DNA of 64,000 nt from Gammaproteobacteria bacterium (GTDB taxonomy: Bacteria; Pseudomonadota; Gammaproteobacteria; SZUA-140), in assembly GCA_015492435.1 (NCBI GenBank), contig WGFB01000014.1:15728-79727 (forward strand), read 5' to 3'. This document shows positions 1,896-28,845 of this stretch, piece by piece. Position numbers and translations under genes: made by a program. The notes under the pieces were generated by a model. That model was not told the DNA's origin, made no database searches, and worked only from the letters and a program-made list of their open reading frames with translations. Position 1 is the stretch's first letter. Every line of letters begins with the position of its first letter.

Positions 1896-2168
1896 GGGTT
1901 CCATGGCCTTTTCGACGGCATCAGCCGTTGAGATACGCGCGGGTCGGCAGGACAGGCCGGATTGTCTCCCACCGGCCGGCATCATGCAAGGTTCGCAGGC
2001 CGCGCGGAGGCCAAGTATAAAAGAAAACCGTGCCTTTCGTAAGAGCGTGCGCGCCGCTCCGCGCCTGGCGCACCGGCCTTGGGAGCCGCCAGAAATTGTC
2101 CTCCGCGAAACAAATTTGCTATGTTCTCGTCTTCAGTGCATCTCTGGGAACCCGCCCCCGCCAGGTTC

Positions 2169-4060: not shown

Positions 4061-4175
4061 GGGCTTCTTCCAGCGTGGTTGAAGGGCCGTTCACCGGGCA
4101 TGCGCGGGCACAAAGGGACACGGCATGGCGAGTGGCGGCGGGAACAGCGGCCCACAGGCGGCCACTCCGCCAGGT

Positions 4176-5066
4176 TTAAAATGACAGGGAATCTTCATCA
4201 CCGTGACGCGCCCGCGCCTCCATGACATCGATGTAATGCCATCCCTCGACCTCGATTCTGTCAGGAAGCCAAAGACGCGATGGCCATCCCAGGTGATACT
4301 TGGGAGCGATGATGGTCCTGCCGCTGACCTCGTTGAGCCACCCGCCCCACCAGGAGAAACTGCTGTTGGCGATGATATTATATTTGCAGCGCGTGAACAA
4401 AAACATGTCGACCACGCCGGGGTTTCCCCGCGTGACAACCTTGTTGCTGATACCGGAAAAGACCCGTGACGCAAACTCCACGTCATCACTGACAATGACA
4501 TGGAACAGATCGCCGGGAAGCCGGGAAAGCGCTTCCTTGTAATATGCCAGCGGCAATATCCAGCCTATGCCATCGCCCTTGCGGGCCATCTCCATATAAT
4601 CTCCCCGCCTGATATGGATGCAACACCGCCTGGAGCTGGGCGCGGGCCATTGCGCCTCTATCTCGCCGATCAGGCGCCTGTAGCGGGGGCGGGGAGTAAA
4701 CCATTGCAGGACCTGCCGCCTGTTTTCCGCGAAATAGAGAGGGGACTGGAAGAAGCCCCGCACGGTCACGCCGTCGCTGACATCGAAGAACCGGCTGTCG
4801 AAACACTCGTCGTGTATGCCTCGGCTGTAATGCTTTCTGCGCGGCCGGAACGTCTCTCCCCCCAAGGGATGGCGCAGGCGGTAACGCAGCCGGTTGGCGG
4901 CCAGGGACAAGGTTGTCTCGCCATCCAGCTCGAAATACCTGTGCAGGGAACCCTTGCGCCCCCCGCGGAAGCAGAACGCGTAGCCTTTTTGCCCGGCCAG
5001 TGTCTTGCAGGCCGCGTACTGGAACATATTGTTCCCGGTCTGGGCGATCAGCTTCAGCATGATCAT
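4176..5066 (-). CDS. Glycosyltransferase family 11 (alpha-1,2-fucosyltransferase-like)
   Basis: Motifs IHIRRGDY and NSSFSWWGGWL match GT11 motifs I and III (HxRRGD; SxFSWW). The N-terminal GNNMFQYA matches GNQMFQYA. Start probably the internal ATG (MIMLKLIA). Confidence 0.75.
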   Translation of the reverse strand: MIMLKLIAQTGNNMFQYAACKTLAGQKGYAFCFRGGRKGSLHRYFELDGETTLSLAANRLRYRLRHPLGGETFRPRRKHYSRGIHDECFDSRFFDVSDGVTVRGFFQSPLYFAENRRQVLQWFTPRPRYRRLIGEIEAQWPAPSSRRCCIHIRRGDYMEMARKGDGIGWILPLAYYKEALSRLPGDLFHVIVSDDVEFASRVFSGISNKVVTRGNPGVVDMFLFTRCKYNIIANSSFSWWGGWLNEVSGRTIIAPKYHLGWPSRLWLPDRIEVEGWHYIDVMEARARHGDEDSLSF

Positions 5067-5162
5067 GATGGCAGCCCCCGGCGGCGACATTGCAACAACG
5101 CGGGCAAGCCTATTCCATATCGGCAATCTGAACGCAGCGCTCCGCGGGACCTTTGCATGGAA

Positions 5163-6278
5163 TCAGTCCGTCTCTTCAAGCAGCGCCTTCAGGCGCGCCA
5201 CCACGCGCGGCAACTCATCCGCGGGCCTGTTTCCCGCGGGAAGGAAATCCTCTCCCAGGGATACCGCCAGCCCCCTGTCCAGCAATACCCGGTGCAAGGC
5301 GGTGAGATCGCGCGCATACCCCAGTATTCCCAGGCGGCGGAATAGCGCGCCCAGCGCCTCACCGAGGGCGCCGCCATTCCCGCCTCCCGCCAGCCTGGCC
5401 ACCCATTGTTGCAGGCGGCTCGCGGGATCTTCCCTGACGGGCAGAGGGAAAATCGCCAGCGGCCTGCCCAGGCGCGCCACTTCCACCATCATGGAAACGC
5501 TGTCGCCGGTCACGATGAAATAGTCGGCCAGGCCGAGCAGCGCACGGTAGGGATTGTCCTTGCCGTCCCTGCGCCACTGGTAGAAACGGGCGTTTCCCGG
5601 CAGCGCGTCCTGGACAGCCTTCACCACCGGCAGCGGCGTGCGCCTGCTGGTAGTGGCATAAAGCGTCCCCCCCGCCTTATCAGCAAGGGCGGAGGCCCTG
5701 CCCACCAGGTCCCGCGCCACGCTTGCATCGAACACAAAGGGCTTGGTGGCGCCGCCGATCATGAGCGCGAAAACGGGACGTTGCAAGGCGGCGAAACGTT
5801 CGCGCCAGGAAGCAGCCGCCTCGGCAATGGCACGCTCGTCCGGCCGCATGAGAGGCAGGTCGAGGCGCAGCACATTGGGCCTGTCGGGCAGATGATACTG
5901 AGATGGCGCGATGATCAGGGCGTAGTCATCCAGGCCCCGCTTGGGGCGTCCCACCAGCACGACCCGGCTCCGCCCTCCACTCTGTTTGCGTATCCACATG
6001 GCCACCATCGCGGAGCGGCGCCCGATGGTGAGGATGAGATCCGGCCATGGCGGCTGCAACGCGTCCGATTTTTGCCGGTCGATGTGATAGAGAGAGGCCT
6101 TGAAGGGAGGCTTGCCCAACACATATTGTTCCAGGGGATAGACACGCTTGGTCTCGCAGGGCAGCCCCAGGGCCTCGGCGATGATTTCCACCTGGGCATT
6201 GTCGCCCAGCTTGTCACTGAGCACCAGCCAGATGCGGGGCGCCTGGCGCGCGTTGTCGGGGACAAAGGGAGTGGACAT
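5163..6278 (-). CDS. ELM1/DUF1022 family protein (predicted GT-B-like transferase)
   Basis: 371 aa. PWPDLILTIGRRS...VVLVGRP...YALIIAPSQYHLP...FALMIGGATKPFVFD...NPYRALLGLADYFIVTGDSVSMMVEVARLGRPLAIF fits the mitochondrial-fission ELM1-like family seen in LPS-core clusters. Confidence 0.6.
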   Translation of the reverse strand: MSTPFVPDNARQAPRIWLVLSDKLGDNAQVEIIAEALGLPCETKRVYPLEQYVLGKPPFKASLYHIDRQKSDALQPPWPDLILTIGRRSAMVAMWIRKQSGGRSRVVLVGRPKRGLDDYALIIAPSQYHLPDRPNVLRLDLPLMRPDERAIAEAAASWRERFAALQRPVFALMIGGATKPFVFDASVARDLVGRASALADKAGGTLYATTSRRTPLPVVKAVQDALPGNARFYQWRRDGKDNPYRALLGLADYFIVTGDSVSMMVEVARLGRPLAIFPLPVREDPASRLQQWVARLAGGGNGGALGEALGALFRRLGILGYARDLTALHRVLLDRGLAVSLGEDFLPAGNRPADELPRVVARLKALLEETD

Positions 6279-6411: not shown

Positions 6412-7536
6412 ATGAACGATTTGTCATCCTCCATCGGCGTCCCGGCCGACCCGCCAACCGTCTGGATCATCACCGGCTACCGCGCCGGGGAAGATACGCA
6501 GATTCTCGCCCTCGCCGAGGCCCTGCAATGGCCCTTCTCCACCAAGCGCCTCGTTTACCAGGCCCATGATTTCATACCCGGCCTGCTGCGCCTGGCCTCG
6601 CTGAAGGGCATCAATCTGGCCCGCTCCAGCCCCCTTGTCCCGCCCTGGCCGGACCTGGTCATCTCCGCGGGCATGCGCAATGAACCCGTATGCCGCTGGA
6701 TCAAGGCGCAATCCGGGGGGAGAACGCGCATTGTCCTGCTGGGCAGGCACTGGGCGCGGCTGGAGCACTTCGATCTCGTCATCACCACTCCCCAATACCG
6801 CCTCCCGCAAGATACAAAAATTCTGCACAATATCACGACCCTGCACCGGGTCAACGAAAACATGCTGCGGGAGGCCTGCACCCGGCATGCCGCCACCCTG
6901 GCCGGCTTGCCGCGCCCCCACATCGCGGTGATCATGGGCGGCAGCAGCGGTCCCTATACCCTTGGGCGGCGTGCCGCGCGGCGCCTGGCCCGCCAGGCCT
7001 GCGCAATGGCACGCGCCCAGGGAGGCGCCCTCCTCGTCACCAGCAGCTCGCGCACCCCCGCCGCCGCCATCGATGCCTTTTCCGCGGCCGCCGCATGCCC
7101 CATGCGCTTCTACCGGTGGAAACCGGCCGACAAGGCCAACCCCTATTACGCCTTCCTGGCCTCGGCCGACGCCATTATCGTCACGGGTGACAGCATCGCC
7201 ATGCTCTCGGAAGCCTGCGCCACGGGAAAACCCGTCTATATTTTCGACCTGGGAACGGGCAGGGAGGCCATGCGCCCCCTGCCAGCAGGCTCAAGGCACG
7301 CCCGCGGCAGCGCGGAGCGGAACGATTTCCGGCTGGGCGCGTTGCTCTACAAGCTGCTCATGCGCCACGGCCCGCAACGGCTGACACGCGACATCCGCCT
7401 GGTACACAGTCAATTGACCGCCTCGGGGCTGGCCACCTGGCTGGACGAAACATGCACGCCACCCTCCCCGGGCCAACGCCCCCCCGACAGCATCGAGCGC
7501 GCCGTGGCGCGGGTACGCTCAATGCTCGGCCGGTGA
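6412..7536 (+). CDS. ELM1/DUF1022 family protein (paralog of 5163..6278, divergently transcribed)
   Basis: 374 aa with the same motif series as its neighbour (PWPDLVISAGMRN...IVLLGRH...DLVITTPQYRLP...IAVIMGGSSGPY...NPYYAFLASADAIIVTGDSIAMLSEACATGKPVYIF). Confidence 0.6.
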   Translation: MNDLSSSIGVPADPPTVWIITGYRAGEDTQILALAEALQWPFSTKRLVYQAHDFIPGLLRLASLKGINLARSSPLVPPWPDLVISAGMRNEPVCRWIKAQSGGRTRIVLLGRHWARLEHFDLVITTPQYRLPQDTKILHNITTLHRVNENMLREACTRHAATLAGLPRPHIAVIMGGSSGPYTLGRRAARRLARQACAMARAQGGALLVTSSSRTPAAAIDAFSAAAACPMRFYRWKPADKANPYYAFLASADAIIVTGDSIAMLSEACATGKPVYIFDLGTGREAMRPLPAGSRHARGSAERNDFRLGALLYKLLMRHGPQRLTRDIRLVHSQLTASGLATWLDETCTPPSPGQRPPDSIERAVARVRSMLGR

Positions 7537-9255
7537 GCGCACCGGGATGAGCCGCTCGTCCTGCAGGCGGTAGACCCGGTCGGCGATGTCCACCAGCGCC
7601 GTCTGGTGCGAGATGGACAGAACCGTCAGCCGCCCCGCCAACTGTTTCAAGGTGTCGCAGATGGCGCCCTCGCTCTTGGGATCCAGGGCGCTTGTCGCTT
7701 CATCCAGGATCAGCAGCTCCGGCCGGTGCGCCAGCGCGCGCGCGATCATGATGCGCTGGCGCTGACCGCCGGAAAGGCTGGCGCCACGCTCCCCGACCAC
7801 GCTGTACATACCGTCACGCAAATCTGAAACGAACTCCCAGGCCCCGGCCGCCCGCAAGGCGTATTCCGCGTCCGCTTCATCCAGCCCGGGATCGCCCAGA
7901 GTGACATTGTGAAACACGTTGTCATGAAGGAGCAGGTTTTCCTGGGGCACATAGCCGATCTTTCTGCGCCACTGGCGCAGATCCATCTCTCTCAGATCCA
8001 CGCCATCTATGAGTATGGCGCCATGCTGGGGTTGCAGCAGGCCGGTGATGAGGTCGACAATGGTCGTCTTGCCGGCCCCGGAAGGACCCGTCAACGCCAC
8101 CAGGGAGCCCTTGGGTATCACCGCCGAGGCATCGCGCAGGACGACTTTCTCACCATAGGCAAAATCGACGCCCTGCAGGCGGATGTCCCGCTCAAATCTC
8201 GGCGGCAGCGTGCCCGTGGAGATCTCGCGGGTTTCCTGCGCCTCGCGAGTGGTCTGATCGATGGACCAGAAGGCGCTTTCCGCGGTCACCATCTTCTGAT
8301 ACCAGCGCTGTATCTTTCCCATTTGCGCCATGATGCGCCCCAGCAACAGGGCCAGCATGAGCATGGTGGAAGCCGGCACTTCCCACATCACCAGGGCCAC
8401 ATAAATTCCGATGGCTATGAATCCCACGAACATGGGTTCCTGGATGGCCTGCAGCACGGCCTTGCTGAAGACCTCCTTCTGCAGGGCACGATTGAGTTTC
8501 GATGTCTCGGCCGCCATCACTTCGTCGGCCAGGTCTTCCCTGCCCATGGCCTTGAGTGGCTTGACGGACTGCAGGGTGTCGGTAAGGCGGCCGAGGAGAG
8601 ACTTCAGCAGCTTGGTCTGGCGCTTGCCGGCGCGGCGCGACATTCTCACCAGGGCATACGTGACGACGAGCACCAGCAACCCCGCACCCAACGCGGCCAG
8701 GGTGGCTTGCCAGGAAATCAGCAGGGCCACGATGATATAGACGACCGCTTCGATACAGCGGGCGATCATGGTCGTGCCATAGATATAGGCCTCCGAAGCG
8801 CGCATGGCCTCGGTGGTCATGGCATTGGCCATGCGCCCCGCCGGCTGCCGGATGAAGTATTCCCAACGGGAGGCCAGCACGGCGCGCAGCAGGGACAGGC
8901 GCAGATCGGTGGTGACCTGCGCGGCGGTGTAGCCGATCTGCTTGCGCGCCGCCAGCAGGAGCAGATTCTTGACCACAATCCCCACCATCACGATGATCAG
9001 CAACACACCAATGGAGGGCGTCAGGCCGACGTCATGCAACACGCCGCGCACGATCTCCTCCAGTCCACTGCCATCCTGGCCGCCTCCATCCGTCCCCGGA
9101 ACTTTGTCCCCCTCCCCCTGATCCAGGGCCAGGCTGAGCAGGGGCAGCAAGGCGGAGAGGCTGATCCCCTCGGAAATACCCGCCAGCAACAGGGCGAGCA
9201 GCATCAGGACGGACTGCCAGGGATATACGCGGAAGAATTTCAGAAGTATATGCAT
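7519..9255 (-). CDS. ABC transporter permease/ATP-binding protein, MsbA-like lipid exporter
   Basis: 578 aa. N-terminal 6-TM domain followed by an NBD with Walker A GPSGAGKTT, signature LSGGQRQR and Walker B LILDEATSALD. Confidence 0.85.
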   Translation of the reverse strand: MHILLKFFRVYPWQSVLMLLALLLAGISEGISLSALLPLLSLALDQGEGDKVPGTDGGGQDGSGLEEIVRGVLHDVGLTPSIGVLLIIVMVGIVVKNLLLLAARKQIGYTAAQVTTDLRLSLLRAVLASRWEYFIRQPAGRMANAMTTEAMRASEAYIYGTTMIARCIEAVVYIIVALLISWQATLAALGAGLLVLVVTYALVRMSRRAGKRQTKLLKSLLGRLTDTLQSVKPLKAMGREDLADEVMAAETSKLNRALQKEVFSKAVLQAIQEPMFVGFIAIGIYVALVMWEVPASTMLMLALLLGRIMAQMGKIQRWYQKMVTAESAFWSIDQTTREAQETREISTGTLPPRFERDIRLQGVDFAYGEKVVLRDASAVIPKGSLVALTGPSGAGKTTIVDLITGLLQPQHGAILIDGVDLREMDLRQWRRKIGYVPQENLLLHDNVFHNVTLGDPGLDEADAEYALRAAGAWEFVSDLRDGMYSVVGERGASLSGGQRQRIMIARALAHRPELLILDEATSALDPKSEGAICDTLKQLAGRLTVLSISHQTALVDIADRVYRLQDERLIPVRSPAEH

Positions 9256-9299: not shown

Positions 9300-10502
9300 T
9301 CAATTTTCCAGGATTCTCCCGCTCAGGGCGCCAAAGGCATCGACGACGGCATCGATCTGGGCGGCGCTGTGGGCCGCGCTGAGGCTGCAACGCAACAGGC
9401 ATTCCGTGGTCGGCGAGGCGGGTGGCATCACCAGGTTCACATAGACCCCCTTGTCCAGAAGGTCATGCCAGACTTTCAGGGCGCTGTCCTTCGATCTGCC
9501 CAGGGTGACGGCAACGACCGGGCTGGATTCGGGTCCCATCCTGAAACCGAAGGCCTTGAGCCCCTGGTACAGGCGGTGAGCGTTGTCCCACAGGCGCTTG
9601 CGCAGCTCAGGACCCTGTTCCCGCAGGATACTCAGGGCGACGCGGGTGGAGGCAATGATGGAAGGCGACGAGGAGGCCGTAAAAATATAGGGACGCATGG
9701 CATAGCGTGCATGCTCCAGTTCCTGCCACCTGCTGACGCAGAACCCGCCGATGGCCCCCAGGCTCTTGCTGAAGGTGCCGACGATGAAATCCACGTCCTC
9801 CTCCACGCCCGCCTGCTCCACCAGTCCCCGCCCTCGCTCCCCCAGAACGCCCAGGGAATGGGCCTCGTCCACCATCAGATAGGCTCCGTGGCGGCGCTTG
9901 ACTTCCACGATCTCCTGGAGGGGCGCCTGATCGCCGATCATGCTGTAGATGCCTTCCACGACAACGAGGGCCGATTCCGCCTTGTCTCCCAGGCGCCTGA
10001 GACGCTTATCCAGATCGGCGGGGTCGTTGTGACGAAAGCGGATGACCTCCGCATTGCCGAGACGGCAGCCATCATAGATGCTGGCATGGCTGTCCGCGTC
10101 CAGGAGAATGGCGTCCGAGGCGCCTGGTATGGTGGACAGTATACCCAGGTTGGCGATGTAACCCGTCGAAAACACGATGGAGGCCGGCAGTCCGAAAAAC
10201 TCCGCCAGTTCCCTTTCCAGCGCCAAGTGGCCGGCATAGGTGCCATTGGCCATGCGGGATCCCGTGGTGCCGGTTCCCTCCTCTTCCAGCGCCTTCCTGC
10301 CCGCGGCGATGCAGCGTGGATCGAAGGTCAGCCCCAGGTAGTTGTTGGTGCCCGCCAGGATGGTGCGGCGGCCGTTGACAATGGCCTCCGTCTCCGAAAG
10401 CACCTGCTCGACGACGACGTTGAAGGGATTGGCATCCAGTCTTGCCACATCTTCTCGCAGGTTGGCATAGTACTGGAACTTATCAAAGATCGACCGTGTC
10501 AT
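9300..10502 (-). CDS. spt: Serine palmitoyltransferase (alpha-oxoamine synthase family)
   Basis: 400 aa and very close to Sphingomonas SPT: ILAGTNNYLGLTFDP...GSRMANGT...IVFSTGYIANLGILST...ILLDADSHASIYDGCRLGNAEVIRFRHND..DLDKRL...GTFSKSLG (the PLP lysine). Confidence 0.85.
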   Translation of the reverse strand: MTRSIFDKFQYYANLREDVARLDANPFNVVVEQVLSETEAIVNGRRTILAGTNNYLGLTFDPRCIAAGRKALEEEGTGTTGSRMANGTYAGHLALERELAEFFGLPASIVFSTGYIANLGILSTIPGASDAILLDADSHASIYDGCRLGNAEVIRFRHNDPADLDKRLRRLGDKAESALVVVEGIYSMIGDQAPLQEIVEVKRRHGAYLMVDEAHSLGVLGERGRGLVEQAGVEEDVDFIVGTFSKSLGAIGGFCVSRWQELEHARYAMRPYIFTASSSPSIIASTRVALSILREQGPELRKRLWDNAHRLYQGLKAFGFRMGPESSPVVAVTLGRSKDSALKVWHDLLDKGVYVNLVMPPASPTTECLLRCSLSAAHSAAQIDAVVDAFGALSGRILEN

Positions 10503-10753
10503 TCACTCAGTTCCTGGAGGCTGACCGCCAGGTCCCTGACCGTGTTGATATCGGGCAACCGATTGAGAGGTATGGAGATATCCAGATGATCCTCGATCTC
10601 CATGAGCAGTTCAAGCAACCTGACGGAATCAATATCGAGATCGGCGACAAGCTGGGTTTCTTCGTTCAGCCGCTGGTTGGCCTCGCTGGCAAAAGGCTTT
10701 AACACTTCATAGAGTGCGTCGAGTATTTCCTGATATTGTTTCATGTCGTTCAC
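10499..10753 (-). CDS. acp: Acyl carrier protein (sphingolipid-dedicated ACP)
   Basis: 84 aa, acidic. DLDIDSVRLLEL is a phosphopantetheine attachment motif. The gene overlaps the spt start by 4 nt. Confidence 0.8.
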   Translation of the reverse strand: MNDMKQYQEILDALYEVLKPFASEANQRLNEETQLVADLDIDSVRLLELLMEIEDHLDISIPLNRLPDINTVRDLAVSLQELSE

Positions 10754-10804
10754 GCATCCAGACTAATAGGGCTCAGCTTGTCCGATCCTGCCCTTAAAAA
10801 CAAG

Positions 10805-10963
10805 GGAAACTCTGATTAATTCTGGACCGGATGGATGGCGAGATGAAATGTTCCGGACCAAGGCGAAAAGCACAGGTAATAGCGCGCTATTGCCAAGATT
10901 TTCAACGCAGAGCCGGGACATTTCAGCCGCCAGACGCCGGTTTATGAATTGATCAGAGGTTCC
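10805..10963. mobile_element. 159-bp palindromic MITE (Correia-like), copy 1
   Basis: Terminal inverted repeats GGAA(A/C)CTCTGAT(T/C)AATTC ... GAATTGATCAGAGGTTCC. The internal arms and centre are near-identical to copies at 39421..39579 and 42132..42290. Confidence 0.75.
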
Positions 10964-11036
10964 CAAGCCATGATCAATTCAACCCGCGGGAAAGGCGGCA
11001 TTTTAGCGCGATTCCTTGCCGAATTCTAACCCGCCT

Positions 11037-11070
11037 TTCTCACCGGGATGGCGGGCTGACCTGAGCCTGC
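11037..11070. repeat. ~30-bp conserved hairpin motif AACCCGC(A/C)TTTCTCACC(R)GGATGGCGGG, copy 2
   Basis: Near-identical to 1861..1895 and 14364..14398. Stem CCCGCC/GGCGGG. Confidence 0.5.
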
Positions 11071-11112
11071 CTGCGCCGGCCCGTCATCCCGCGGTAATGG
11101 AGTGAACGCAGG

Positions 11113-12057
11113 CTACCGCGTCCCGTGGGAGGGATACAGGGTTTTTCTCAGCCCTTCCGAAAGTGAAATACGCGGCGCCCAGCCACAGGCATCCCGCCAG
11201 GGCGAGGTGTCATGGCATACCCAGTCTTCATGGAGCAATTCCCGCGCCTTGCCAGGGGTCAGCATGGGGGCGTATCCGGCCACGCGGGCCATCTGTCCAT
11301 TGAGCGCGGCGAGGCCACGCAGCGCCCAGGAGGGAAGATAGCATTTCCTCACCCTGGCACCACGGAGGCTGGCAACCGCTGCCACCACATCTTCCCAGCC
11401 ATAACCACCAGCCCGTCCGTCATCCAGTTCATAGACCCCGCTCCGGCCGGATGGCATCTCCAGGCCACATAGAATGGCCCGCACCAGATCATCGACATAG
11501 AGCAGGGAAAAACGCGCTTGCCTGGAGCCGGGAATAAGGGCCAGGCCACGGGCCATCCACTGGAACAAGGGCAGGAGTTCACGGTCGCCGGGACCGTAGA
11601 CCGCCGGCGGACGCAACGCCAGCCACTCCAGCTTCTCTCCCAGAGCGAGAAGGACTTCCTCTCCTCCGCGCTTGCTGGCGGCATAGTGGGACAAGGCGGG
11701 CTCGCGGGCCGCCAGGGAAGACAGCGCGATGAGGCGGGGCGGGCAGGGTTGCGCCAGCACGGCACTGGCCATTTTCCTCACACCTTCCACGTTGACGCGG
11801 TCGAACTGGGCCTGGGTACGGCCGCGCACGGCGCCGGCACAATGGATCACGGCCCTGACACCGCGCGTCAGGTGTTCGAGGCAGTCCTGATCGTCCAGGT
11901 CCCCGCTGATCCATGCGAGGCCCGGCCGGGCCGGTGATTCCAGGGGACGGACGGCCCGCCTGAGGGCGCGCACTTCCCAACCCTGGTCCAGCAACGCCTT
12001 GACCAGGGCGCGCCCGATGAATCCCGTCGCGCCGGTGACTGCTACGCTGCGGGACAC
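11113..12057 (-). CDS. cerR: NAD-dependent epimerase/dehydratase family reductase (bacterial 3-ketodihydrosphingosine/ceramide reductase CerR candidate)
   Basis: 314 aa. N-terminal Rossmann motif VTGATGFIGRALV. It sits between acp and the acyl-ACP synthetase, as in the Caulobacter ceramide cluster. Confidence 0.6.
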   Translation of the reverse strand: MSRSVAVTGATGFIGRALVKALLDQGWEVRALRRAVRPLESPARPGLAWISGDLDDQDCLEHLTRGVRAVIHCAGAVRGRTQAQFDRVNVEGVRKMASAVLAQPCPPRLIALSSLAAREPALSHYAASKRGGEEVLLALGEKLEWLALRPPAVYGPGDRELLPLFQWMARGLALIPGSRQARFSLLYVDDLVRAILCGLEMPSGRSGVYELDDGRAGGYGWEDVVAAVASLRGARVRKCYLPSWALRGLAALNGQMARVAGYAPMLTPGKARELLHEDWVCHDTSPWRDACGWAPRISLSEGLRKTLYPSHGTR

Positions 12058-12090
12058 GGGAGCACCCCTGTCAGGATACGGGGGATGGCC

Positions 12091-13896
12091 TTATTGATCT
12101 CCCGCTGCCGCGGTCTGCGTTTCCCAGTCGTGCGCCTCAATGAAATTCTGGCGCGCCTTGGACCGCGAGAGCTTGCCGGAGGAGGTGCGCGGCAGGGTAT
12201 GCAGGGGCACCAGCTCCACATAGCAGTCGATGCCCAGTTCGGAACGCACGCGCTGCTTGAGGCGGCTGACCAGGCAGGCCTGGACCGCGGGATCCTTCTT
12301 GCGGCACTGAACCACCATCACGGTGGTCTCCTTGCCGCCCGGACCGGGCGCCGAGAAGGCCAGGGCATCGCCCGTGCGCACTTCGGGCTGCTGCTCGGCC
12401 AGATACTCCAGATCCTGGGGCCAGATGTTGCGCCCGTTGATGATGATAAGGTCCTTCTCCCGGCCCGTGATCACGAGCTGGCCGTCGAGGCGGTATCCGA
12501 TATCACCCGTGTTCAGCCAGCCGTCCGCGGACAGGGTCCGGCGCGTGATCTCGGGCTCGTTGAAGTAGCCGGACATGACGCTGGGGCCACGCAAGTAGAT
12601 CGTGCCGCTGTGACGCTCTGGCAGGGCATTACCCTCCTGATCACGTATTTCCACTTCGAAACCCGGCAGCGGGGTTCCGCAGACAACGAAGGATCGGGTG
12701 CGGGGGGACAGATCTTCCTTGTTACCGCCCGGCACCTCACGTGCCTCGTGACACTTGGCCAGATGATCGGCGTCGATGCGATCCACCTGCAGGCCCGTGT
12801 TGAGGGGCGCGAAACTGATGGCCAGGGAACATTCGGCCATGCCGTAGCAGGCCAGGAAGGCCTTGGGATCGAAGCCGCTGGGTTCCAGCGCCTTTGCGAA
12901 TCTCAGCAGCGGCTCGGAGCGGATCATCTCCGCACCGACTCCGGCAATGCGCCATGCGCTGAGGTCCAGCTTGCTGGCCTCGCCCGCGCGTATGCAGCGC
13001 TCCACCAGTTCATAGCCGAAGGGCGGGCCGAAGGAAATGGTCGCCTTCGTTTTGCTCATCAGGGACAACCATTGACGCGGGCGCATGGCGAATTCGCGTG
13101 TGCCGAGATAGTCGACGGATACCTGAGAAGTGACGGGCACGAGCACCAGCCCCACGAATCCCATGTCGTGATAGAACGGCAGCCAGGACACGTAACGGTC
13201 TCCTGGAACCATTTTCAGGCCGTGCTTGATGATGCCCGCCAGATTGTCCAGCACTGTTTCCTGGGTGATCATGACGCCGCGCGGGAAGCGGGTACTGCCG
13301 GAGGTGTATTGTATGTAAGCCAGTTCGTCGGACTCCAGGGGACGCAGGGCCTGCTGGCTTTCGGGGAAGTTCTCGAAGTCCACCGGATCGCCGACGAAGG
13401 CCATGTCCAGGCCCTCGGCCGCTTCCTCCAGATAGGGCAGGAAACCCGCGGCGGAGACGCCTACCGAGGCATTGCAACTGGTCAGCATGGAACGCAGATG
13501 AGCGACGTAGGCCTCGTGTCCGCCCAGGCTGATGGGGATGGGGAGCGGCACGGGCACCAGGCCCGCGTACTGACATGCAAAGAAGAATCGCAGGAAGTCC
13601 GGATGCGTCTCGGCAATCAGCGCGACGCGCGCGCCGCGTTCCAGTTCCAGGCCGAGAAAACGGCGGGCCAGTATTCGTGCTTCCTGACGCAGCCTGGCAT
13701 AGGAGAGTACGGCATATACTTCGCCTCGCCCGGTATAGAAATTACAACCGGTTTCCCCTTGAGCCGCATAGTCCAGGGCTTCCGCAAGATTGGAAAAGTC
13801 GGCTGCACGGAATGGCAAAGTATTATGGGTAGGTGTCGTCTCCAGATCCAAATTAACCTCCTTAATACTTCTCCTGTTGGTTTCTGTCCCTAGCAT
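12091..13896 (-). CDS. Fatty acyl-AMP ligase / acyl-ACP synthetase
   Basis: 601 aa. AMP-binding motifs YTSGSTRFPRGV, YGMAE, TGDIG and the C-terminal SSGKLSR lysine motif. Good RBS (AAGGAGG) upstream. Confidence 0.8.
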   Translation of the reverse strand: MLGTETNRRSIKEVNLDLETTPTHNTLPFRAADFSNLAEALDYAAQGETGCNFYTGRGEVYAVLSYARLRQEARILARRFLGLELERGARVALIAETHPDFLRFFFACQYAGLVPVPLPIPISLGGHEAYVAHLRSMLTSCNASVGVSAAGFLPYLEEAAEGLDMAFVGDPVDFENFPESQQALRPLESDELAYIQYTSGSTRFPRGVMITQETVLDNLAGIIKHGLKMVPGDRYVSWLPFYHDMGFVGLVLVPVTSQVSVDYLGTREFAMRPRQWLSLMSKTKATISFGPPFGYELVERCIRAGEASKLDLSAWRIAGVGAEMIRSEPLLRFAKALEPSGFDPKAFLACYGMAECSLAISFAPLNTGLQVDRIDADHLAKCHEAREVPGGNKEDLSPRTRSFVVCGTPLPGFEVEIRDQEGNALPERHSGTIYLRGPSVMSGYFNEPEITRRTLSADGWLNTGDIGYRLDGQLVITGREKDLIIINGRNIWPQDLEYLAEQQPEVRTGDALAFSAPGPGGKETTVMVVQCRKKDPAVQACLVSRLKQRVRSELGIDCYVELVPLHTLPRTSSGKLSRSKARQNFIEAHDWETQTAAAGDQ

Positions 13897-14363
13897 GCGT
13901 CAAATTTTGCCAAATATACATTTAATAATCTGATATATCAAGCGGTTATTCAGTTCAATTTGGTGTCCGAATTTAGTATATGATCTGTTGTTTTTTTACA
14001 ACACTGCAAACACAAAAAAATACCGGCCTGGATGTCATGCCAGCGCCTGGTACCCGGCCCTTGCTTCGGGGCACATTCTTGCGCTTTTCAATCTAAAACG
14101 CAAATTAAATATAGTACATGTAAGGGTCCGTCCGCGTCTGACGACCCTGTCACGGAAATTCCCGCCATCACATCCGCCAGCATCCTTGATTTTCTTTCCC
14201 CGCACCCGGCACGCGCAACCCAGGACCGGATTGCTTCCACGGCTCGCCCACAGCCGCAGACTTCTAATGTAGAACGCTGACTTTCCTGGGAATGTTCCAT
14301 GCAGAAAAGGAGAATTCCTCAGACAAGCAAGAATCCCCCTATCGGCCCAAGGGCTTTCAACTG

Positions 14364-14398
14364 CAACCCGCATTTCTCACCAGGATGGCGGGATGACC
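14364..14398. repeat. ~30-bp conserved hairpin motif, copy 3
   Basis: AACCCGCATTTCTCACCAGGATGGCGGGATGACC, ~300 bp upstream of the bCerS candidate. Confidence 0.5.
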
Positions 14399-14703
14399 GC
14401 GCAGCGAATTGGATTCACAAAGGATTTTGCGATGGAGCGGAATACCCGCGTGTGTTTCCGGCTGAGTTGGGTGCAAGGATCAAGCGAGGGCCCGCCATCC
14501 AGGAAGCAAGGCAGGTCTGAAAGGGGCAGCGGAAGCGCGTCCACCCGGCGCAGGGAGCGCATTTGATCCTGCCCCCGAAAATCCTGATTTTGGAACTGCA
14601 AAGAAAAACATTTATCGGTACACTACTGCCATCATCAACAAAGACCCATGGCCTGCCCCGAACATGATACCGCCCGAGCCCCGCCCGCTCCTACCAACCG
14701 ACC

Positions 14704-15858
14704 ATGGAAAACTGCTGCGCCATGTCTGAATCATCAAGGTTTCACATCGTACCCGTCGGGAACGCCAGGCAACTGGAAACATTTATCCGGATGCCATGGC
14801 CCATCTACCGCGATGACCCGGCCTGGGTTCCCCCGCTCATATACGAGCGCAAGGAACACCTGTCGGAAAAAAACCCTTTTTTCCAACACGCCCGCTGGCA
14901 GGCCTGGCTGGCCATGGACGAAGACCGCCCAGTGGGACGCATCAGCGCCCAGATTGACCAGTTGCACCTGGAACGCTATGACGACAAGTGCGGCCATTTC
15001 GGCATGCTGGAAGCCATCGACAACCCGGCGGTTTTCTCTCTGCTGCTGAACACGGCGGAGCAATGGCTGCGCGATCAGGGCATGGCCCTGATCCGCGGTC
15101 CATTCAACCTCTCCATCAATGAAGAATGCGGGCTCCTGGTGGAGGGCTTCGACACACCGCCCTCCCTCATGATGGGACATGCCCGGCCTTACTACGGCCC
15201 GCATGTGGAAGGCCAGTCCTACAGCGTGGTTAAGCAATTGCTGGCCTATCGTATTGCCACCAGGAAACAGCCTCCGGAAATCATGCAAAAGCTGACGCGC
15301 AAGGCCGGCCGCACCGCGACGGCGCGCCCCCTGAGACGCAAGGAAATCGACAAGGAGCTGGAGATCATGCAGGACATCTTCAACGATGCCTGGTCCAACA
15401 ACTGGGGATTCGTTCCCTTCACCGCCGAGGAATTCAAGGAGGTCGGGCGCAACCTCCTGATGCTGGTCAGCGACGACTTCGTGCAGATCGCGGAGATCGA
15501 CGGCGAGCCGGTGGCCATGATGGTTGCCCTGCCCAATGTCAACGAGGCCATCAAAGACCTGGATGGCAGACTCTTTCCAACGGGATTTCTGAAGCTGCTG
15601 TGGCGTCTCAAGGTCAAATATCCGCGCAGCGGGCGCATCCCCCTCATGGGGGTGCGCAAGCGTTATCATCATACCCCCCTGGGGCCCGGACTGGCTTATC
15701 TGATGATTTCCGCCATCCGTGACGCCGTCTTGAAACGCGGCATCCAGGATATGGAAATGTCCTGGATACTGGAGGACAATGCCGGCATGCGCCATATCTT
15801 GGAAACCGCCGGCGCCGAAATTTACAAGCGCTACAATATTTATCAGAAATCATTGTGA
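14704..15858 (+). CDS. GNAT-fold N-acyltransferase, bacterial ceramide synthase (bCerS) candidate
   Basis: 384 aa with coding-like composition. It is divergently oriented to the spt-acp-cerR-ACP-synthetase block across an AT-rich control region. The family call rests on context and size, not on clear motifs I could verify by eye. Confidence 0.5.
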   Translation: MENCCAMSESSRFHIVPVGNARQLETFIRMPWPIYRDDPAWVPPLIYERKEHLSEKNPFFQHARWQAWLAMDEDRPVGRISAQIDQLHLERYDDKCGHFGMLEAIDNPAVFSLLLNTAEQWLRDQGMALIRGPFNLSINEECGLLVEGFDTPPSLMMGHARPYYGPHVEGQSYSVVKQLLAYRIATRKQPPEIMQKLTRKAGRTATARPLRRKEIDKELEIMQDIFNDAWSNNWGFVPFTAEEFKEVGRNLLMLVSDDFVQIAEIDGEPVAMMVALPNVNEAIKDLDGRLFPTGFLKLLWRLKVKYPRSGRIPLMGVRKRYHHTPLGPGLAYLMISAIRDAVLKRGIQDMEMSWILEDNAGMRHILETAGAEIYKRYNIYQKSL

Positions 15859-16679
15859 CAGCGCGCACACGGGCCACACCCCTGCCTGACCAGCCCCGTT
15901 TCAGTGCCATCATCCTGGCGGGGGACCGCCGCCCCGGGGACCCACTCGTTCTGAAGGCGGGGGTCGCCGGCAAGGCCTTGATCCCCGTCGCCGGCATTCC
16001 CATGGTCCAACGCGTCGTCAGCGCCCTTGAGGAAAGCCGTTTCATCGGCAGGCGCATACTCTGCGGGCCGCCCCGCGACGCCCTGATAAGCGCCCCCCGC
16101 CTCCTGGAGATGATTCAGGCGGGTGAAGTCGAATGGATGGAGAGCCAGCCTTCCCCATGCCTCAGCGCCATCCACTCCATGGCGCGCATTCCCGATACGG
16201 AACCCGTGCTGCTCACCACGGCGGATCACGCACTGCTGAGCACGGAGATTCTTGACGAATTCTGCCGCCACGCACTCGACCACAAGCATGATGTGATGGC
16301 GGGCCTGGCACGCCACGAGGACATTCTGCGCGCCTACCCGGAAACGAACAGGACGTCCCTGCGCTTTCGCGATGGCGCTTTCAGCGGCTGCAACCTGTTT
16401 GCCTTTCCCACTCCGGCAGGCCGCCGCATCACGGCATTCTGGCGCCGCGTGGAGCAACAACGCAAGAACCCCTTCCGGGTCGTGAGCGCGGCGGGCTGGA
16501 TGGCTGTCCTGCGCTATGCCTTGGGCCGGCTGACCCTGGAAGAAGGACTGCAGCGCATCTCCCGGCGCCTGGATCTGCGTGTCGGGGTCGCTGTCTTGTC
16601 CCAGCCCGAAGCAGCCATCGACATCGATACTGTTGAAGACTGGAAATTGGCCGACAAAATAGCCAGGGAACGCCCGTAA
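15855..16679 (+). CDS. MobA-like NTP-transferase domain protein (nucleotidyltransferase)
   Basis: 274 aa. The N-terminus AIILAGDRRPGDPL...KALIPVAGIPMVQRVV is typical of MobA-like and sugar-phosphate nucleotidyltransferases. It overlaps the bCerS stop by 4 nt (ATGA), which implies translational coupling. Confidence 0.7.
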   Translation: MTARTRATPLPDQPRFSAIILAGDRRPGDPLVLKAGVAGKALIPVAGIPMVQRVVSALEESRFIGRRILCGPPRDALISAPRLLEMIQAGEVEWMESQPSPCLSAIHSMARIPDTEPVLLTTADHALLSTEILDEFCRHALDHKHDVMAGLARHEDILRAYPETNRTSLRFRDGAFSGCNLFAFPTPAGRRITAFWRRVEQQRKNPFRVVSAAGWMAVLRYALGRLTLEEGLQRISRRLDLRVGVAVLSQPEAAIDIDTVEDWKLADKIARERP

Positions 16680-16686
16680 CGGACGT

Positions 16687-17709
16687 TTGCGAACACCCAT
16701 ATTGCCTGACTACCCGGGGATGACCAGACAACAACAGCACAAACCCTGCACCGCGCGGAGCATCACCCACCTGCTGCCGGCACGGATGACTGCCCTGCTG
16801 CTGTTGCCCATGCTGATGATGCCGGTGGTCAAGCTTCAGGCCGCTCCCAGCACGGGAGAACAGGCGGCTCCACCATCCTATGACCTCAATTCCCTGACAT
16901 GGCGTGCATTGCATTTCGCAACCTCCATCATGGGCATGCCGCTTCACGCCAAAATGAAGGCCCGGATTCTTTCAAGGGACGAGGCACAGCGGCATCTGGT
17001 TTCCCCGGGCGAGGGGCACGGTATGCCACCCGCTGACGCCGTGCTGCAATTGGAGGTATTCTCCTCGTTCATCAATGACAAAGACATTCACACCCGCCTG
17101 ATGATCAATCCCGGTGACGCCGCGGCGCTGCAGCGCACCCGCGTCGAACTGACCCCGGGAGACGAGCGCTACAAGGCATACCGTTTCACCGGGGAAGGGG
17201 TTTTCATCCTGCGGCGCGTCCCCAGGCGGGGCGAGGCTGAAAAGCCCTTTACGGAATGGACGGGCACACACGAATCCTTCATCCCCTATCCCGGCCGTCA
17301 CCGCCGCCCGGACCTCGCCTCGGACACGGCCGCGCTGCTCTACATGGGTTCAGCCGCGAACTTCACAGCACCCGGCGACAGCAAAAGCTTCATTGCCTAT
17401 TTCGATGACAGCTTTCACGTGATTACGATGGAGTACCAGGGTATCGAAGGCGTACGGGCGGATTTCCAGGCCGGGCGCCAGGATGCGGGGTCACGGCGCA
17501 TCCTGAGCTACCGGGACGCCCTGCGGCTGACGATCCGCGCCCATCCCCTGGAACGCCCCAATGAAGAAAGCACGCTCCAGATCGCGGGCCTGGAGCCCCC
17601 GGTGGAGCTGTTCATCGATCAGGAAATGCGTGTCCCCCTGGAATTGCGCGGCCGCTTCGGTTTCATCGGGGAAATCTCCCTGCGCCTGGACAGGGCAGAG
17701 CTGCGGTGA
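16687..17709 (+). CDS. Secreted/periplasmic hypothetical protein
   Basis: 340-aa ORF. A likely signal peptide starts at the internal Met (MTALLLLPMLMMPVVKLQAAP, ~16786). No family recognised. It is the last gene of the bCerS operon. Confidence 0.5.
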   Translation: MRTPILPDYPGMTRQQQHKPCTARSITHLLPARMTALLLLPMLMMPVVKLQAAPSTGEQAAPPSYDLNSLTWRALHFATSIMGMPLHAKMKARILSRDEAQRHLVSPGEGHGMPPADAVLQLEVFSSFINDKDIHTRLMINPGDAAALQRTRVELTPGDERYKAYRFTGEGVFILRRVPRRGEAEKPFTEWTGTHESFIPYPGRHRRPDLASDTAALLYMGSAANFTAPGDSKSFIAYFDDSFHVITMEYQGIEGVRADFQAGRQDAGSRRILSYRDALRLTIRAHPLERPNEESTLQIAGLEPPVELFIDQEMRVPLELRGRFGFIGEISLRLDRAELR

Positions 17710-22031: not shown

Positions 22032-22070
22032 TATACCCCTCGCTTATATTTTTCGTGCCTTGAATGGATT

Positions 22071-23146: not shown

Positions 23147-23148
23147 GT

Positions 23149-24564: not shown

Positions 24565-24623
24565 GACTATCGCGATTCCATTTATAGATTGTTATCACAT
24601 ACCCCTGGCGGCTCAGGCTGGGC

Positions 24624-27697: not shown

Positions 27698-27746
27698 CTT
27701 GTTTCACCCCGTTTTCGTCACACACATTGCGTGTGTACAACGTGAA

Positions 27747-28385: not shown

Positions 28386-28845
28386 CTCCCCCCTCAATAC
28401 CTATTTGAATTTGTCTCAAAAAAGCAGAAGCCGCCGGAGATCCTATGGAAAATCTTTAGGGATTCCGGTCAGCCAACCCAGTTCATTTCAGTTGGTGGCA
28501 ACTGCTTATTATTATTGTCGTCCACCCTGCCGGATACCGCTGACAATCAGGGCCCCCTCCGGCCTGGCTCGCGCCAGCCGGTTTCAAGCCTGCATACCCT
28601 GGTGAGTGTACAACTCCAACGTCATTTTGGATACTGCCACCGGCCCTCGTTTTAATAATCATTTGTTATTAGGCATTCCCGCGAAACCGCGGGGCTGCCC
28701 AGGCAATGATTATCCGCTTGCTCAGGCCATGAAAGGACAATGCTAGTCCAATTCAAACCGCCCTGTCAATATCCTCGCATTGCAATCAACATTTTGTTCT
28801 TGGAGGAAAAACCTGAATCACTGCCAGGAAATATACCCATGCGTG

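What the first reader, a model, noticed from the sequence alone, without database searches (positions are those of the whole stretch)
9300..15858. Complete bacterial ceramide synthesis gene set in a betaproteobacterium-like genome
spt is strongly similar to Sphingomonas SPT, including the PLP-lysine context GTFSKS. It overlaps a dedicated acp by 4 nt. These are followed by an NAD-dependent epimerase/dehydratase-family reductase and an acyl-ACP synthetase (FAAL). The GNAT-type N-acyltransferase is divergent.

This matches the convergently evolved bacterial pathway described in Caulobacter (Spt to CerR/bCerS). The his-tat-murA synteny here is betaproteobacterial, a lineage not classically known for sphingolipids.
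Basis: partly seen in the sequence, partly recalled or inferred. Interest (0 to 1): 0.75.

Follow-up and report, generated by a model that had tools for sequence, protein, structure and literature searches.

The report
Bacterial ceramide gene cluster, gammaproteobacterial
The window does carry the complete five-gene bacterial ceramide (sphingolipid backbone) set, but this cluster is already described in alpha-, beta- and gammaproteobacteria, and the host is a gammaproteobacterium rather than a betaproteobacterium, so the core finding is ordinary.

Summary
On the minus strand lie aasR (an acyl-ACP synthetase of the fatty acyl-AMP ligase type), cerR, acpR and spt. The ceramide synthase gene bCerS is transcribed divergently.

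Spt passes NCBI's curated serine palmitoyltransferase cut-off and fails those of BioF, Kbl and CqsA. Its best solved relative is Sphingomonas SPT. The fifth protein has no Pfam hit, but it is 50% identical over its full length to E. coli YghO, the published orthologue of Caulobacter bCerS. It is 44% identical to the Sphingomonas counterpart, and its model is a tandem GNAT.

The gene order matches E. coli yghO|aasR-cerR-acpR-spt and recurs in most of the 80 genome loci fetched.

The taxonomic and novelty claims fail. The best named MurA relatives are all Gammaproteobacteria (Chromatiales-like). The set is already published for Nitrosomonas eutropha, E. coli, Azotobacter and Pseudomonas.

The flanks are more interesting:
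- An MsbA-like ABC exporter lies directly downstream of spt, as in 16 of 44 loci.
- A CC_1153-like nucleotidyltransferase is coupled to bCerS.
- ELM1-type glycosyltransferases and a sulfotransferase recur in sphingolipid loci, including that of cultured Thiogranum longum.
- The Caulobacter phospho-head-group genes are absent from the window.

The parts
9300..10502 (-). spt, serine palmitoyltransferase (400 aa)
   Evidence: NF047599 scores 627.9 bits against a cut-off of 500. BioF scores 329 (cut-off 426), Kbl 317 (460) and CqsA 213 (428). The best PDB match is Sphingomonas SPT 2x8u, E 1.8e-132, against Kbl 6e-68 and CqsA 2.5e-35; GTFSKS, SHAS and DEAH are aligned. It is 57% identical to E. coli Spt.
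10499..10753 (-). acpR, dedicated acyl carrier protein (84 aa from a GTG start; 81 aa in relatives)
   Evidence: PF00550 E 5.5e-9. It carries a DIDS serine motif and is 42% identical to the E. coli cluster ACP. The ATGA overlap with spt is confirmed.
11113..12057 (-). cerR, NAD(P)-dependent extended-SDR reductase (314 aa)
   Evidence: PF01370 E 5e-28. It is 42% identical over its full length to the E. coli cluster epimerase/dehydratase protein. It is 38% identical to the Sphingomonas parapaucimobilis gene in the equivalent position.
12091..13896 (-). aasR, fatty acyl-AMP ligase type acyl-ACP synthetase (601 aa)
   Evidence: NF006624 scores 788 bits against a cut-off of 600. tblastn gives 47% identity to E. 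coli and 65% to Thiogranum longum.
13897..14703 (.). 807-bp divergent intergenic region between aasR and bCerS
   Evidence: A sigma-70-like site lies at 13941-13913(-). Blocks are conserved with relatives L002 and L007, including the inverted repeats TGTTGT-T6-ACAACA and TTGCGCTTTTC...AAAACGCAA. No Rfam match was found.
14704..15858 (+). bCerS / cerS, tandem-GNAT N-acyltransferase (384 aa; the true start may be the ATG at 14722)
   Evidence: It is 50% identical over its full length to E. coli YghO, E 2e-135. It is 44% identical to the Sphingomonas N-acetyltransferase that lies in an spt locus. The AF2 model has pLDDT 86.4; Foldseek matches tandem GNATs 5kf1, 7q3a, 2wpw and MshD, E down to 4.5e-15.
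15855..16679 (+). MobA-like nucleotidyltransferase, probable counterpart of Caulobacter CC_1153 (274 aa)
   Evidence: PF12804 E 3.2e-10. A GTGA overlap with bCerS is confirmed. The gene lies directly downstream of bCerS in 67 of 86 loci. CC_1153 and Neut_1101 are MobA/CofC-like and adjacent to cerS (PMC11324152 supplement).
16687..17709 (+). 340-aa protein of unknown function with a hydrophobic N-terminal segment
   Evidence: No Pfam or NCBIfam hit. It is found only in the closest relatives, always after the nucleotidyltransferase.
7519..9255 (-). MsbA-like ABC exporter half-transporter (578 aa), 44 nt downstream of spt
   Evidence: PF00664 and PF00005. It is below the curated MsbA cut-off (255 bits against 602). 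PDB relatives are ABCB1, ABCB4, PglK, Sav1866 and MsbA. It is the next same-strand gene after spt in 16 of 44 loci.
5163..6278 (-). ELM1/GtrOC1-family putative GT-B glycosyltransferase (371 aa)
   Evidence: PF06258 E 5.9e-54. The AF2 model has pLDDT 89.5; its best folds are MGD1 and MurG. It is 57% identical to the Thiogranum longum ELM1 gene that follows cerK and the Tam41-like gene.
6412..7536 (+). second ELM1-family protein (374 aa)
   Evidence: PF06258 E 1.3e-56. The pair is conserved in L002, L005, L007 and L015.
910..1845 (-). sulfotransferase (311 aa)
   Evidence: PF00685 E 1.1e-24. It is 66% identical to a sulfotransferase inside the Thiogranum longum sphingolipid locus. In L002 the homologue lies next to the ABC gene.
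3..833 (-). ORF cut by the window edge, homologous to two unknown 312-315 aa proteins of the Thiogranum longum locus
   Evidence: tblastn gives 77% and 71% identity. The T. longum proteins have no Pfam hit.
2079..5126 (.). GT2 glycosyltransferase 2079-3236(+), unknown ORF 3164-4060(-) and GT11-like protein 4176-5126(-); membership of the locus is uncertain
   Evidence: PF00535 E 5.4e-17 and PF01531 E 4.2e-17. Only the GT11-like gene is shared, and only with the near-identical L005.

Best explanation
This is a functional locus for the ceramide backbone of bacterial sphingolipids, in an uncultured sulfur-oxidiser-like gammaproteobacterium.

Inferred mechanism, by homology to the Caulobacter and E. 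coli systems:
1. AasR adenylates a long-chain fatty acid and loads it on the dedicated carrier AcpR.
2. Spt, a PLP enzyme, condenses acyl-AcpR with L-serine to give 3-oxo-sphinganine.
3. The tandem-GNAT bCerS N-acylates this product in the cytoplasm to give oxidised ceramide.
4. The extended-SDR CerR reduces the 3-keto group to give dihydroceramide.

Shown here: gene content, gene order, family membership and conserved synteny. Inferred: substrates, the order of reactions, the localisation of the enzymes and the final lipid.

A less secure extension concerns the flanks. The ABC exporter downstream of spt probably moves the lipid across the inner membrane. The CC_1153-like nucleotidyltransferase, the ELM1-type glycosyltransferases and the sulfotransferase probably build a polar head group that differs from Caulobacter's ceramide di-phosphoglycerate.
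For: - Family assignments with curated cut-offs.
- PDB ranking of Spt: SPT far above Kbl, BioF and CqsA.
- Pairwise identity to the E. coli yghO|aasR-cerR-acpR-spt cluster of 42-57%, in identical gene order.
- Identity to the Sphingomonas locus.
- Tandem-GNAT fold of bCerS.
- Translational coupling by ATGA and GTGA overlaps.
- Co-localisation of the five genes across Gamma-, Beta- and Deltaproteobacteria and Nitrospirota-labelled loci.
- Near-identical synteny in independent metagenomes.
- Biochemistry from the literature. AasR, AcpR and Spt together give 3-oxo-sphinganine, and five genes are required for dihydroceramide (PMC9386255). Spt and bCerS are cytoplasmic and CerR is periplasmic (PMC11087976).
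Against: - No lipid data exist for this organism.
- The window protein could not be compared directly with CCNA_01212, because no tool gave access to that sequence. The link runs through YghO and the Sphingomonas orthologue plus published tables.
- bCerS has no Pfam or NCBIfam hit of its own.
- CerR begins directly at its Rossmann motif with no visible signal peptide. A periplasmic location is therefore only an extrapolation.
- The order of reactions is still disputed in the literature.
Confidence: 0.85

Rival explanations
1. The alpha-oxoamine synthase uses a substrate other than serine, for example cysteate, glycine or alanine. The cluster would then make a sulfonolipid, a 1-deoxy-sphingoid base or a signalling ketone rather than ceramide.
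For: The superfamily is promiscuous. Cysteate-C-fatty acyltransferase (28eh) and CqsA appear among the PDB hits. Sulfur-related enzymes (sulfotransferases) lie nearby.
Against: SPT structures score E 1e-130. Cysteate acyltransferase scores 9e-59 and CqsA 2.5e-35. Only the SPT equivalog model passes its curated cut-off. The four partner genes are the ceramide partners, in the same order as in E. coli.
Confidence: 0.06
2. One reading: a betaproteobacterial genome, so the cluster extends sphingolipid synthesis to a lineage not known for it.
For: The gene order murA-hisGDCBHAF...tatC is common in Betaproteobacteria. The best Spt model is named 'BetaP'.
Against: Every named MurA relative in the top 120 is gammaproteobacterial. 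The closest bCerS loci are 'Gammaproteobacteria bacterium' MAGs, Thiogranum and Sedimenticola. E. coli Spt also hits the 'BetaP' model. The betaproteobacterial cluster is already published for N. eutropha.
Confidence: 0.05
3. The flanking ABC exporter, ELM1 proteins, glycosyltransferases and sulfotransferase belong to an unrelated LPS-core or exopolysaccharide locus. They sit beside the ceramide genes by coincidence.
For: NCBI names ELM1 homologues 'ELM1/GtrOC1 family putative glycosyltransferase', after an outer-core gene. The GT2 and GT11 genes are not conserved beside spt in other loci. The ELM1 gene at 6412-7536 converges on the ABC gene.
Against: The ABC gene is the next same-strand gene after spt in 16 of 44 loci spanning several classes. 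In Thiogranum longum, ELM1 and a sulfotransferase directly follow cerK and the Tam41-like gene on one strand with 13-27 nt gaps. The window's sulfotransferase and its edge ORF are 66-77% identical to genes of that locus.
Confidence: 0.3

Closest known systems
E. coli B / ETEC yghO | aasR-cerR-acpR-spt cluster (ECD_02850-02854; PMC9386255)
   Same: Same five genes in the same order and orientation, including the divergent bCerS/yghO. Identities are 57% (Spt), 50% (YghO), 47% (AasR), 42% (CerR) and 42% (AcpR).
   Different: In E. coli, spt is followed by a convergent lptG/lptF pair, a Wzx-like 'lipopolysaccharide biosynthesis protein' and P-loop proteins. Here it is followed by an MsbA-like ABC exporter and ELM1-type genes. 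E. coli also has no nucleotidyltransferase after yghO.
Caulobacter crescentus sphingolipid locus CC_1152-CC_1168 (spt CCNA_01220, acpR 01221, cerR 01222, aasR 01223, bCerS 01212, CC_1153 = 01211)
   Same: Same five structural genes for dihydroceramide. bCerS is followed by a MobA/CofC-like nucleotidyltransferase. The presumed chemistry is the same.
   Different: The 64-kb window has no ceramide kinase and no CC_1161, CC_1159 or CC_1152 homologue. It also has no LptF2/G2 pair. Here bCerS is adjacent to the spt operon rather than eight genes away. Caulobacter's candidate flippase CC_1166 is Wzx-like, not an ABC protein.
Nitrosomonas eutropha C91 Neut_0458-0461 plus Neut_1100/1101 (published betaproteobacterial example)
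   Same: The aasR-cerR-acpR-spt operon and the cerS-CC_1153 pair.
   Different: In N. eutropha the two groups are far apart, and cerS is followed by LptF2/G2, CC_1159, cerK and CC_1161. Here the groups are adjacent and those genes are missing from the window.
Thiogranum longum sphingolipid locus (cultured gammaproteobacterium; locus L090)
   Same: cerR-aasR | bCerS-nucleotidyltransferase, followed by ELM1, sulfotransferases and unknown 312-aa proteins. Identity to window genes is 45-77%.
   Different: T. longum has a metallophosphoesterase, cerK and a Tam41-like gene between the nucleotidyltransferase and ELM1. It has LptF/G nearby. Its spt and acp genes are not within 10 kb.

Membership tests
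Five-gene bacterial ceramide synthesis set (spt, acpR, cerR, aasR, bCerS/cerS) | An alpha-oxoamine synthase that scores as serine palmitoyltransferase rather than BioF, Kbl, HemA or CqsA | tested here: met
   NF047599 scores 627.9 bits against a cut-off of 500; all other AOS models fall below their cut-offs. PDB SPT hits reach E 1.8e-132, against 6e-68 for the best non-SPT.
Five-gene bacterial ceramide synthesis set (spt, acpR, cerR, aasR, bCerS/cerS) | PLP-binding lysine and catalytic His/Asp motifs of SPT | tested here: met
   GTFSKS, DADSHAS and VDEAH align to the same motifs in Sphingomonas SPT 2x8u. The catalytic roles of these residues come from established knowledge of S. paucimobilis SPT.
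Five-gene bacterial ceramide synthesis set (spt, acpR, cerR, aasR, bCerS/cerS) | A dedicated ACP gene immediately upstream of spt | tested here: met
   PF00550, ATGA overlap with spt and 42% identity to E. coli AcpR.
Five-gene bacterial ceramide synthesis set (spt, acpR, cerR, aasR, bCerS/cerS) | An adenylate-forming acyl-ACP synthetase (AasR) in the same operon | tested here: met
   NF006624 fatty acyl-AMP ligase scores 788 bits against a cut-off of 600. The gene is conserved next to cerR in 50 or more loci. The acyl-ACP synthetase activity itself was not tested.
Five-gene bacterial ceramide synthesis set (spt, acpR, cerR, aasR, bCerS/cerS) | An extended-SDR / NAD-dependent epimerase-family reductase (CerR) | tested here: met
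   PF01370. It is 42% identical to the E. coli gene and 38% to the Sphingomonas gene in the equivalent position.
Five-gene bacterial ceramide synthesis set (spt, acpR, cerR, aasR, bCerS/cerS) | A protein of about 380 aa homologous to bCerS (CC_1154/CCNA_01212, YghO, Swit_3908, Neut_1100) | tested here: met
   It is 50% identical over its full length to YghO and 44% to the Sphingomonas parapaucimobilis orthologue in an spt locus. It has a tandem GNAT fold. The equivalence of YghO and CC_1154 is taken from PMC9386255. Direct comparison with CCNA_01212 was not possible.
Five-gene bacterial ceramide synthesis set (spt, acpR, cerR, aasR, bCerS/cerS) | Production of 3-oxo-sphinganine and dihydroceramide | not testable with these tools
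   This needs lipid extraction and LC-MS, or heterologous expression.
   bioF scores 329 bits (cut-off 426), Kbl 317 (460) and CqsA-type 213 (428).
Caulobacter-type ceramide (di)phosphoglycerate pathway (cerK CC_1160, CC_1161, CC_1159, CC_1152, CC_1153, LptF2/G2) | Ceramide kinase, a Tam41-like gene (provisionally taken here as the CC_1161 counterpart), CDP-alcohol transferase, the CC_1152 nucleotidyltransferase and an LptF/G pair in or near the locus | tested here: not met
   tblastn with representatives from other bCerS loci finds nothing in the 64-kb window. Only a CC_1153-like PF12804 gene is present. The rest of the genome was not available, so absence from the organism is not shown.
Betaproteobacterial host | Housekeeping proteins closest to Betaproteobacteria | tested here: not met
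   Named MurA relatives in the top 120 are Chromatiales, Endothiovibrio, Tenderia, Thiotrichales and 'Gammaproteobacteria bacterium' only.
MsbA (lipid A flippase) | A score above the curated MsbA equivalog cut-off | tested here: not met
   TIGR02203 scores 255 bits against 602, and NF008381 scores 188 against 867. The protein is MsbA-like in architecture only.

The most novel reading that the evidence does not exclude
The MsbA-like ABC exporter encoded 44 nt downstream of spt is the missing inner-membrane flippase for bacterial (oxidised) ceramide. In other lineages it is interchangeable with a Wzx-like flippase or an MmpL transporter in the same slot. In this sulfur-oxidiser-like gammaproteobacterial lineage, which includes Thiogranum, ELM1-type GT-B transferases and PAPS-type sulfotransferases build a glycosylated or sulfated sphingolipid head group that has not been described in bacteria.
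Probability: 0.3. Interest if true: 0.65.

Novelty: new member of a known kind. Interest (0 to 1): 0.3.

Why it matters
The core result only adds one more uncultured gammaproteobacterium, related to hydrothermal-vent MAGs, to the long list of predicted sphingolipid producers.

The flanks matter more. Two recent papers state that no flippase for bacterial sphingolipids has been identified (PMC11087976; bioRxiv 10.64898/2026.04.12.717747). An ABC exporter placed as if co-transcribed with spt, in 16 of 44 loci from several classes, is a concrete and testable candidate.

The recurrent ELM1 and sulfotransferase genes suggest head groups beyond the known phosphoglycerate and hexosyl types. Thiogranum longum, a cultured species, carries them and can be used to test this.

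Tried and rejected
- Direct comparison with the Caulobacter proteins failed. The Stankeviciute 2022 paper is not held, and no collection available here gave me the Caulobacter sequences. The link was made through E. coli YghO, the Sphingomonas orthologue and published orthologue tables.
- Pfam and NCBIfam give nothing for bCerS or the 340-aa and 298-aa ORFs. NCBIfam also gives nothing for the ELM1 proteins or the nucleotidyltransferase.
- A sequence search of bCerS against the PDB gave only marginal GNAT hits (E 0.25-0.47). The fold search was needed.
- Rfam and tRNA scans of the window found nothing, so no riboswitch or RNA marker explains the long intergenic region.
- A literature search on GtrOC1/ELM1 returned only yeast Elm1 kinase papers.
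- I considered that the minus-strand ORFs 14734-15795 and 15843-16700, or the plus-strand ORF 12085-13893, might be the real genes. They have no family hits and lie opposite well-supported genes.
- I considered a CqsA, BioF or sulfonolipid reading of spt and rejected it on scores.

Full report

- spt, 9300-10502(-).
- A PP-binding acyl carrier protein, 10499-10753(-).
- An NAD-dependent epimerase/dehydratase-family protein, 11113-12057(-).
- A fatty acyl-AMP ligase, 12091-13896(-).
- A 384-aa ORF, 14704-15858(+), divergent across an 807-bp gap.

The acp stop and the spt start overlap as ATGA. GTFSKS is present and aligns to the same motif of Sphingomonas SPT, as do the SHAS and DEAH motifs.

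**Is spt really an SPT?** Yes.
- It scores 627.9 bits on NCBIfam NF047599, serine palmitoyltransferase (cut-off 500).
- It stays below the cut-offs of BioF (329 against 426), Kbl (317 against 460), the CqsA type (213 against 428) and HemA.
- Against solved structures, Sphingomonas SPTs score E 1e-130 to 1e-132. The best Kbl scores 6e-68, cysteate acyltransferase 9e-59, BioF 3e-55 and CqsA 2.5e-35.

**Is the fifth gene bCerS?** The protein has no Pfam or NCBIfam hit and only marginal sequence hits in the PDB. It nevertheless belongs to a very large family. More than 7,900 homologues were scored, and many carry the name 'N-acetyltransferase' or a precomputed PF00583 hit.

The literature gave the bridge. 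Padilla-Gomez et al. (PMC9386255) list E. coli yghO (ECD_02850) as the 'aca' orthologue of Caulobacter CC_1154. It lies next to aasR, epi, acpR and spt (ECD_02851-02854). I fetched that cluster from an ETEC genome. Its layout is yghO(-) | FAAL, epimerase, ACP, spt(+), the same architecture as the window.

Identities to the window proteins are as follows.

| Protein | Identity to E. coli counterpart |
|---|---|
| YghO / bCerS | 50%, full length, E 2e-135 |
| Spt | 57% |
| AasR | 47% |
| CerR | 42% |
| AcpR | 42% |

A Sphingomonas parapaucimobilis replicon carries cerR-acp-spt-...-lptF-lptG-desaturase-N-acetyltransferase. That acetyltransferase is 44% identical to the window protein, and its cerR is 38% identical to the window's.

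An AlphaFold model (pLDDT 86.4, pTM 0.85) matches tandem GNAT enzymes. These include glucosamine N-acetyltransferase 5kf1, MAB_4324, the clavulanate tandem GNAT and MshD, with E down to 4.5e-15. The second refutation test also fails to refute. A direct comparison with CCNA_01212 could not be made.

**Is the clustering more than chance?** A scan of one genome per species with a bCerS alignment found at least 597 loci. The best 80 were kept. Among the 86 loci held, counts within 10 kb of bCerS were as follows.

| Gene | Loci (of 86) |
|---|---|
| aasR | 62 |
| cerR | 55 |
| spt | 48 |
| acp | 44 |

Many contigs were too short to show more. Two independent metagenomes carry the same block at 83-99% protein identity.

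**Host.** The window is ordinary chromosome. It holds trpE, rpe, an alternative complex III operon, tatC, hisFAHBCDG, murA, yhdP, leuS-lptE-holA and lnt-corC-ybeY-phoH-miaB.
- MurA is 100% identical to a protein of MAG GCA_027049415.1 and 99% identical to one from a 'Chromatiales bacterium' MAG.
- The best cultured relatives are Endothiovibrio diazotrophicus (73%) and Tenderia electrophaga (72%), both Gammaproteobacteria.
- No betaproteobacterial name occurs in the top 120.
- The closest bCerS loci are 'Gammaproteobacteria bacterium' MAGs, Thiogranum and Sedimenticola.
- E. coli Spt also passes the 'BetaP' model, so that model name says nothing about the host.

The betaproteobacterial reading is not supported.

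**Novelty of the core finding.** Olea-Ozuna et al. [quoted passage not shown] They tabulate orthologues for N. eutropha (Neut_0458-0461, Neut_1100, Neut_1101), Azotobacter vinelandii and Pseudomonas luteola. A Black Sea study found Spt-like genes in MAGs of 38 phyla (PMC11334938). The window is a new member of a known kind.

**Mechanism, inferred from those papers.**
1. AasR loads a fatty acid on AcpR.
2. Spt condenses acyl-AcpR with serine to give 3-oxo-sphinganine.
3. bCerS acylates that product in the cytoplasm.
4. CerR reduces it. In Caulobacter this happens in the periplasm.

The window's CerR begins at its Rossmann motif with no evident signal peptide. Its location here is therefore open.

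bCerS overlaps by GTGA a MobA-like nucleotidyltransferase, 15855-16679 (PF12804). This gene follows bCerS in 67 of 86 loci. By domain and position it corresponds to Caulobacter CC_1153 and Neut_1101. CC_1153 is needed for ceramide di-phosphoglycerate.

**The ABC exporter.** An MsbA-like ABC half-transporter, 7519-9255, lies 44 nt downstream of spt.
- It fails the curated MsbA cut-offs.
- It resembles ABCB1, ABCB4, PglK, Sav1866 and MsbA.
- It is the next same-strand gene after spt in 16 of 44 loci with enough sequence. These are labelled gamma, beta and delta proteobacteria, Geobacter, Desulfosarcinaceae and Desulforhopalus.
- In five betaproteobacterial loci the same slot holds a Wzx-like PF01943 protein. 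Caulobacter's candidate flippase CC_1166 is described as a Wzx-like oligosaccharide flippase (IPR002797).
- A 2026 preprint notes an MmpL gene after spt in Myxococcus. It says transport will vary between taxa, and it names no ABC exporter of this kind.
- The Klein laboratory states that no flippase has been identified.

This makes the exporter a reasonable candidate flippase, but the case rests on gene position alone.

**Other frequent neighbours.** Clustering all ORFs of the fetched loci shows which genes commonly accompany bCerS. Family names come from Pfam scans of representatives. The CC_ numbers in the table are my provisional matches by domain; they were not tested against the Caulobacter sequences.

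| Neighbour | Loci |
|---|---|
| Metallophosphoesterase | 41 |
| Tam41-like protein (possibly CC_1161) | 34 |
| LptF/G pair | 34 |
| DAGK-type ceramide kinase | 30 |
| CC_1152-like nucleotidyltransferase | 24 |
| HIT protein | 20 |
| CDP-alcohol transferase (possibly CC_1159) | 18 |

None of these is anywhere in the 64-kb window.

**The window's left flank.** In place of those genes the window has two ELM1/GtrOC1-family proteins, GT11- and GT2-type glycosyltransferases and a sulfotransferase. The ELM1 model (pLDDT 89.5) has a GT-B fold. Its best matches are the lipid glycosyltransferases MGD1 and MurG, with modest TM-scores.

In cultured Thiogranum longum the locus reads cerR, aasR | bCerS, nucleotidyltransferase, (metallophosphoesterase), cerK, Tam41-like, ELM1, sulfotransferase..., sulfotransferase, two unknown 312-315 aa proteins, GT4, Wzy_C, ELM1, LptF, LptG. 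The window's sulfotransferase is 66% identical to one of these. The ORF cut by the window edge (3-833) is 71-77% identical to the unknown proteins.

The left flank of the window is therefore probably the head-group and transport part of the same locus. An adjacent LPS-core locus remains a live alternative.

**Intergenic region.** The 807-bp aasR|bCerS intergenic region contains blocks conserved in relatives that share only 78-83% bCerS identity. These include two inverted repeats. No Rfam family matches.

**Verdict.** The pathway interpretation is supported. The taxonomic and novelty claims are not. Interest in the core finding is low. The flanking exporter and the ELM1 and sulfotransferase genes give a moderate, testable lead.

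Noticed in passing
window 7519-9255 (-): An MsbA-like ABC exporter lies 44 nt downstream of spt on the same strand. The same arrangement occurs in 16 of 44 loci from several classes. Five betaproteobacterial loci have a Wzx-like PF01943 gene in that slot instead. The literature says no sphingolipid flippase is known.
   Followed up: partly
window 5163-6278 (-) and 6412-7536 (+); L090 10001-11056 and 18749-19864: Two ELM1/GtrOC1-family proteins with a predicted GT-B fold (nearest folds MGD1 and MurG) flank the locus. Homologues sit directly after cerK and the Tam41-like gene in Thiogranum and related loci.
   Followed up: partly
window 910-1845 (-) and 3-833 (-); L090 11084-16177: A sulfotransferase and an edge-truncated ORF of unknown family are 66-77% identical to genes inside the sphingolipid locus of cultured Thiogranum longum. 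This hints at a sulfated head group.
   Followed up: partly
window 15855-16679 (+) and 16687-17709 (+): A MobA-like nucleotidyltransferase is translationally coupled to bCerS and is probably the CC_1153 counterpart. It is followed by a 340-aa protein with a hydrophobic N-terminus and no family hit, found only in the closest relatives.
   Followed up: partly
window 13897-14703: This unusually long (807 bp) divergent intergenic region has blocks conserved in relatives, including the inverted repeats TGTTGT-T6-ACAACA and TTGCGCTTTTC...AAAACGCAA. These are possible regulator binding sites. No Rfam match was found.
   Followed up: partly
whole window 1-64000: No homologue of ceramide kinase, the Tam41-like protein, CDP-alcohol transferase, the CC_1152-type nucleotidyltransferase, the metallophosphoesterase, the HIT protein or a second LptF/G pair was found, although these accompany bCerS in 18-41 of the other loci.
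   Followed up: yes
window 20991-28397 (-): This looks like an alternative complex III-like operon. It holds a multihaem cytochrome c, a molybdopterin-family subunit, a 4Fe-4S protein, an NrfD-like protein, ActD and a cytochrome c. It is conserved next to the sphingolipid locus in the hydrothermal-vent relatives.
   Followed up: no
window 42458-46246 (-): A 1262-aa YhdP/AsmA-like protein, from a family implicated in phospholipid transport to the outer membrane, lies in the same window. No link to the sphingolipid locus was examined.
   Followed up: no
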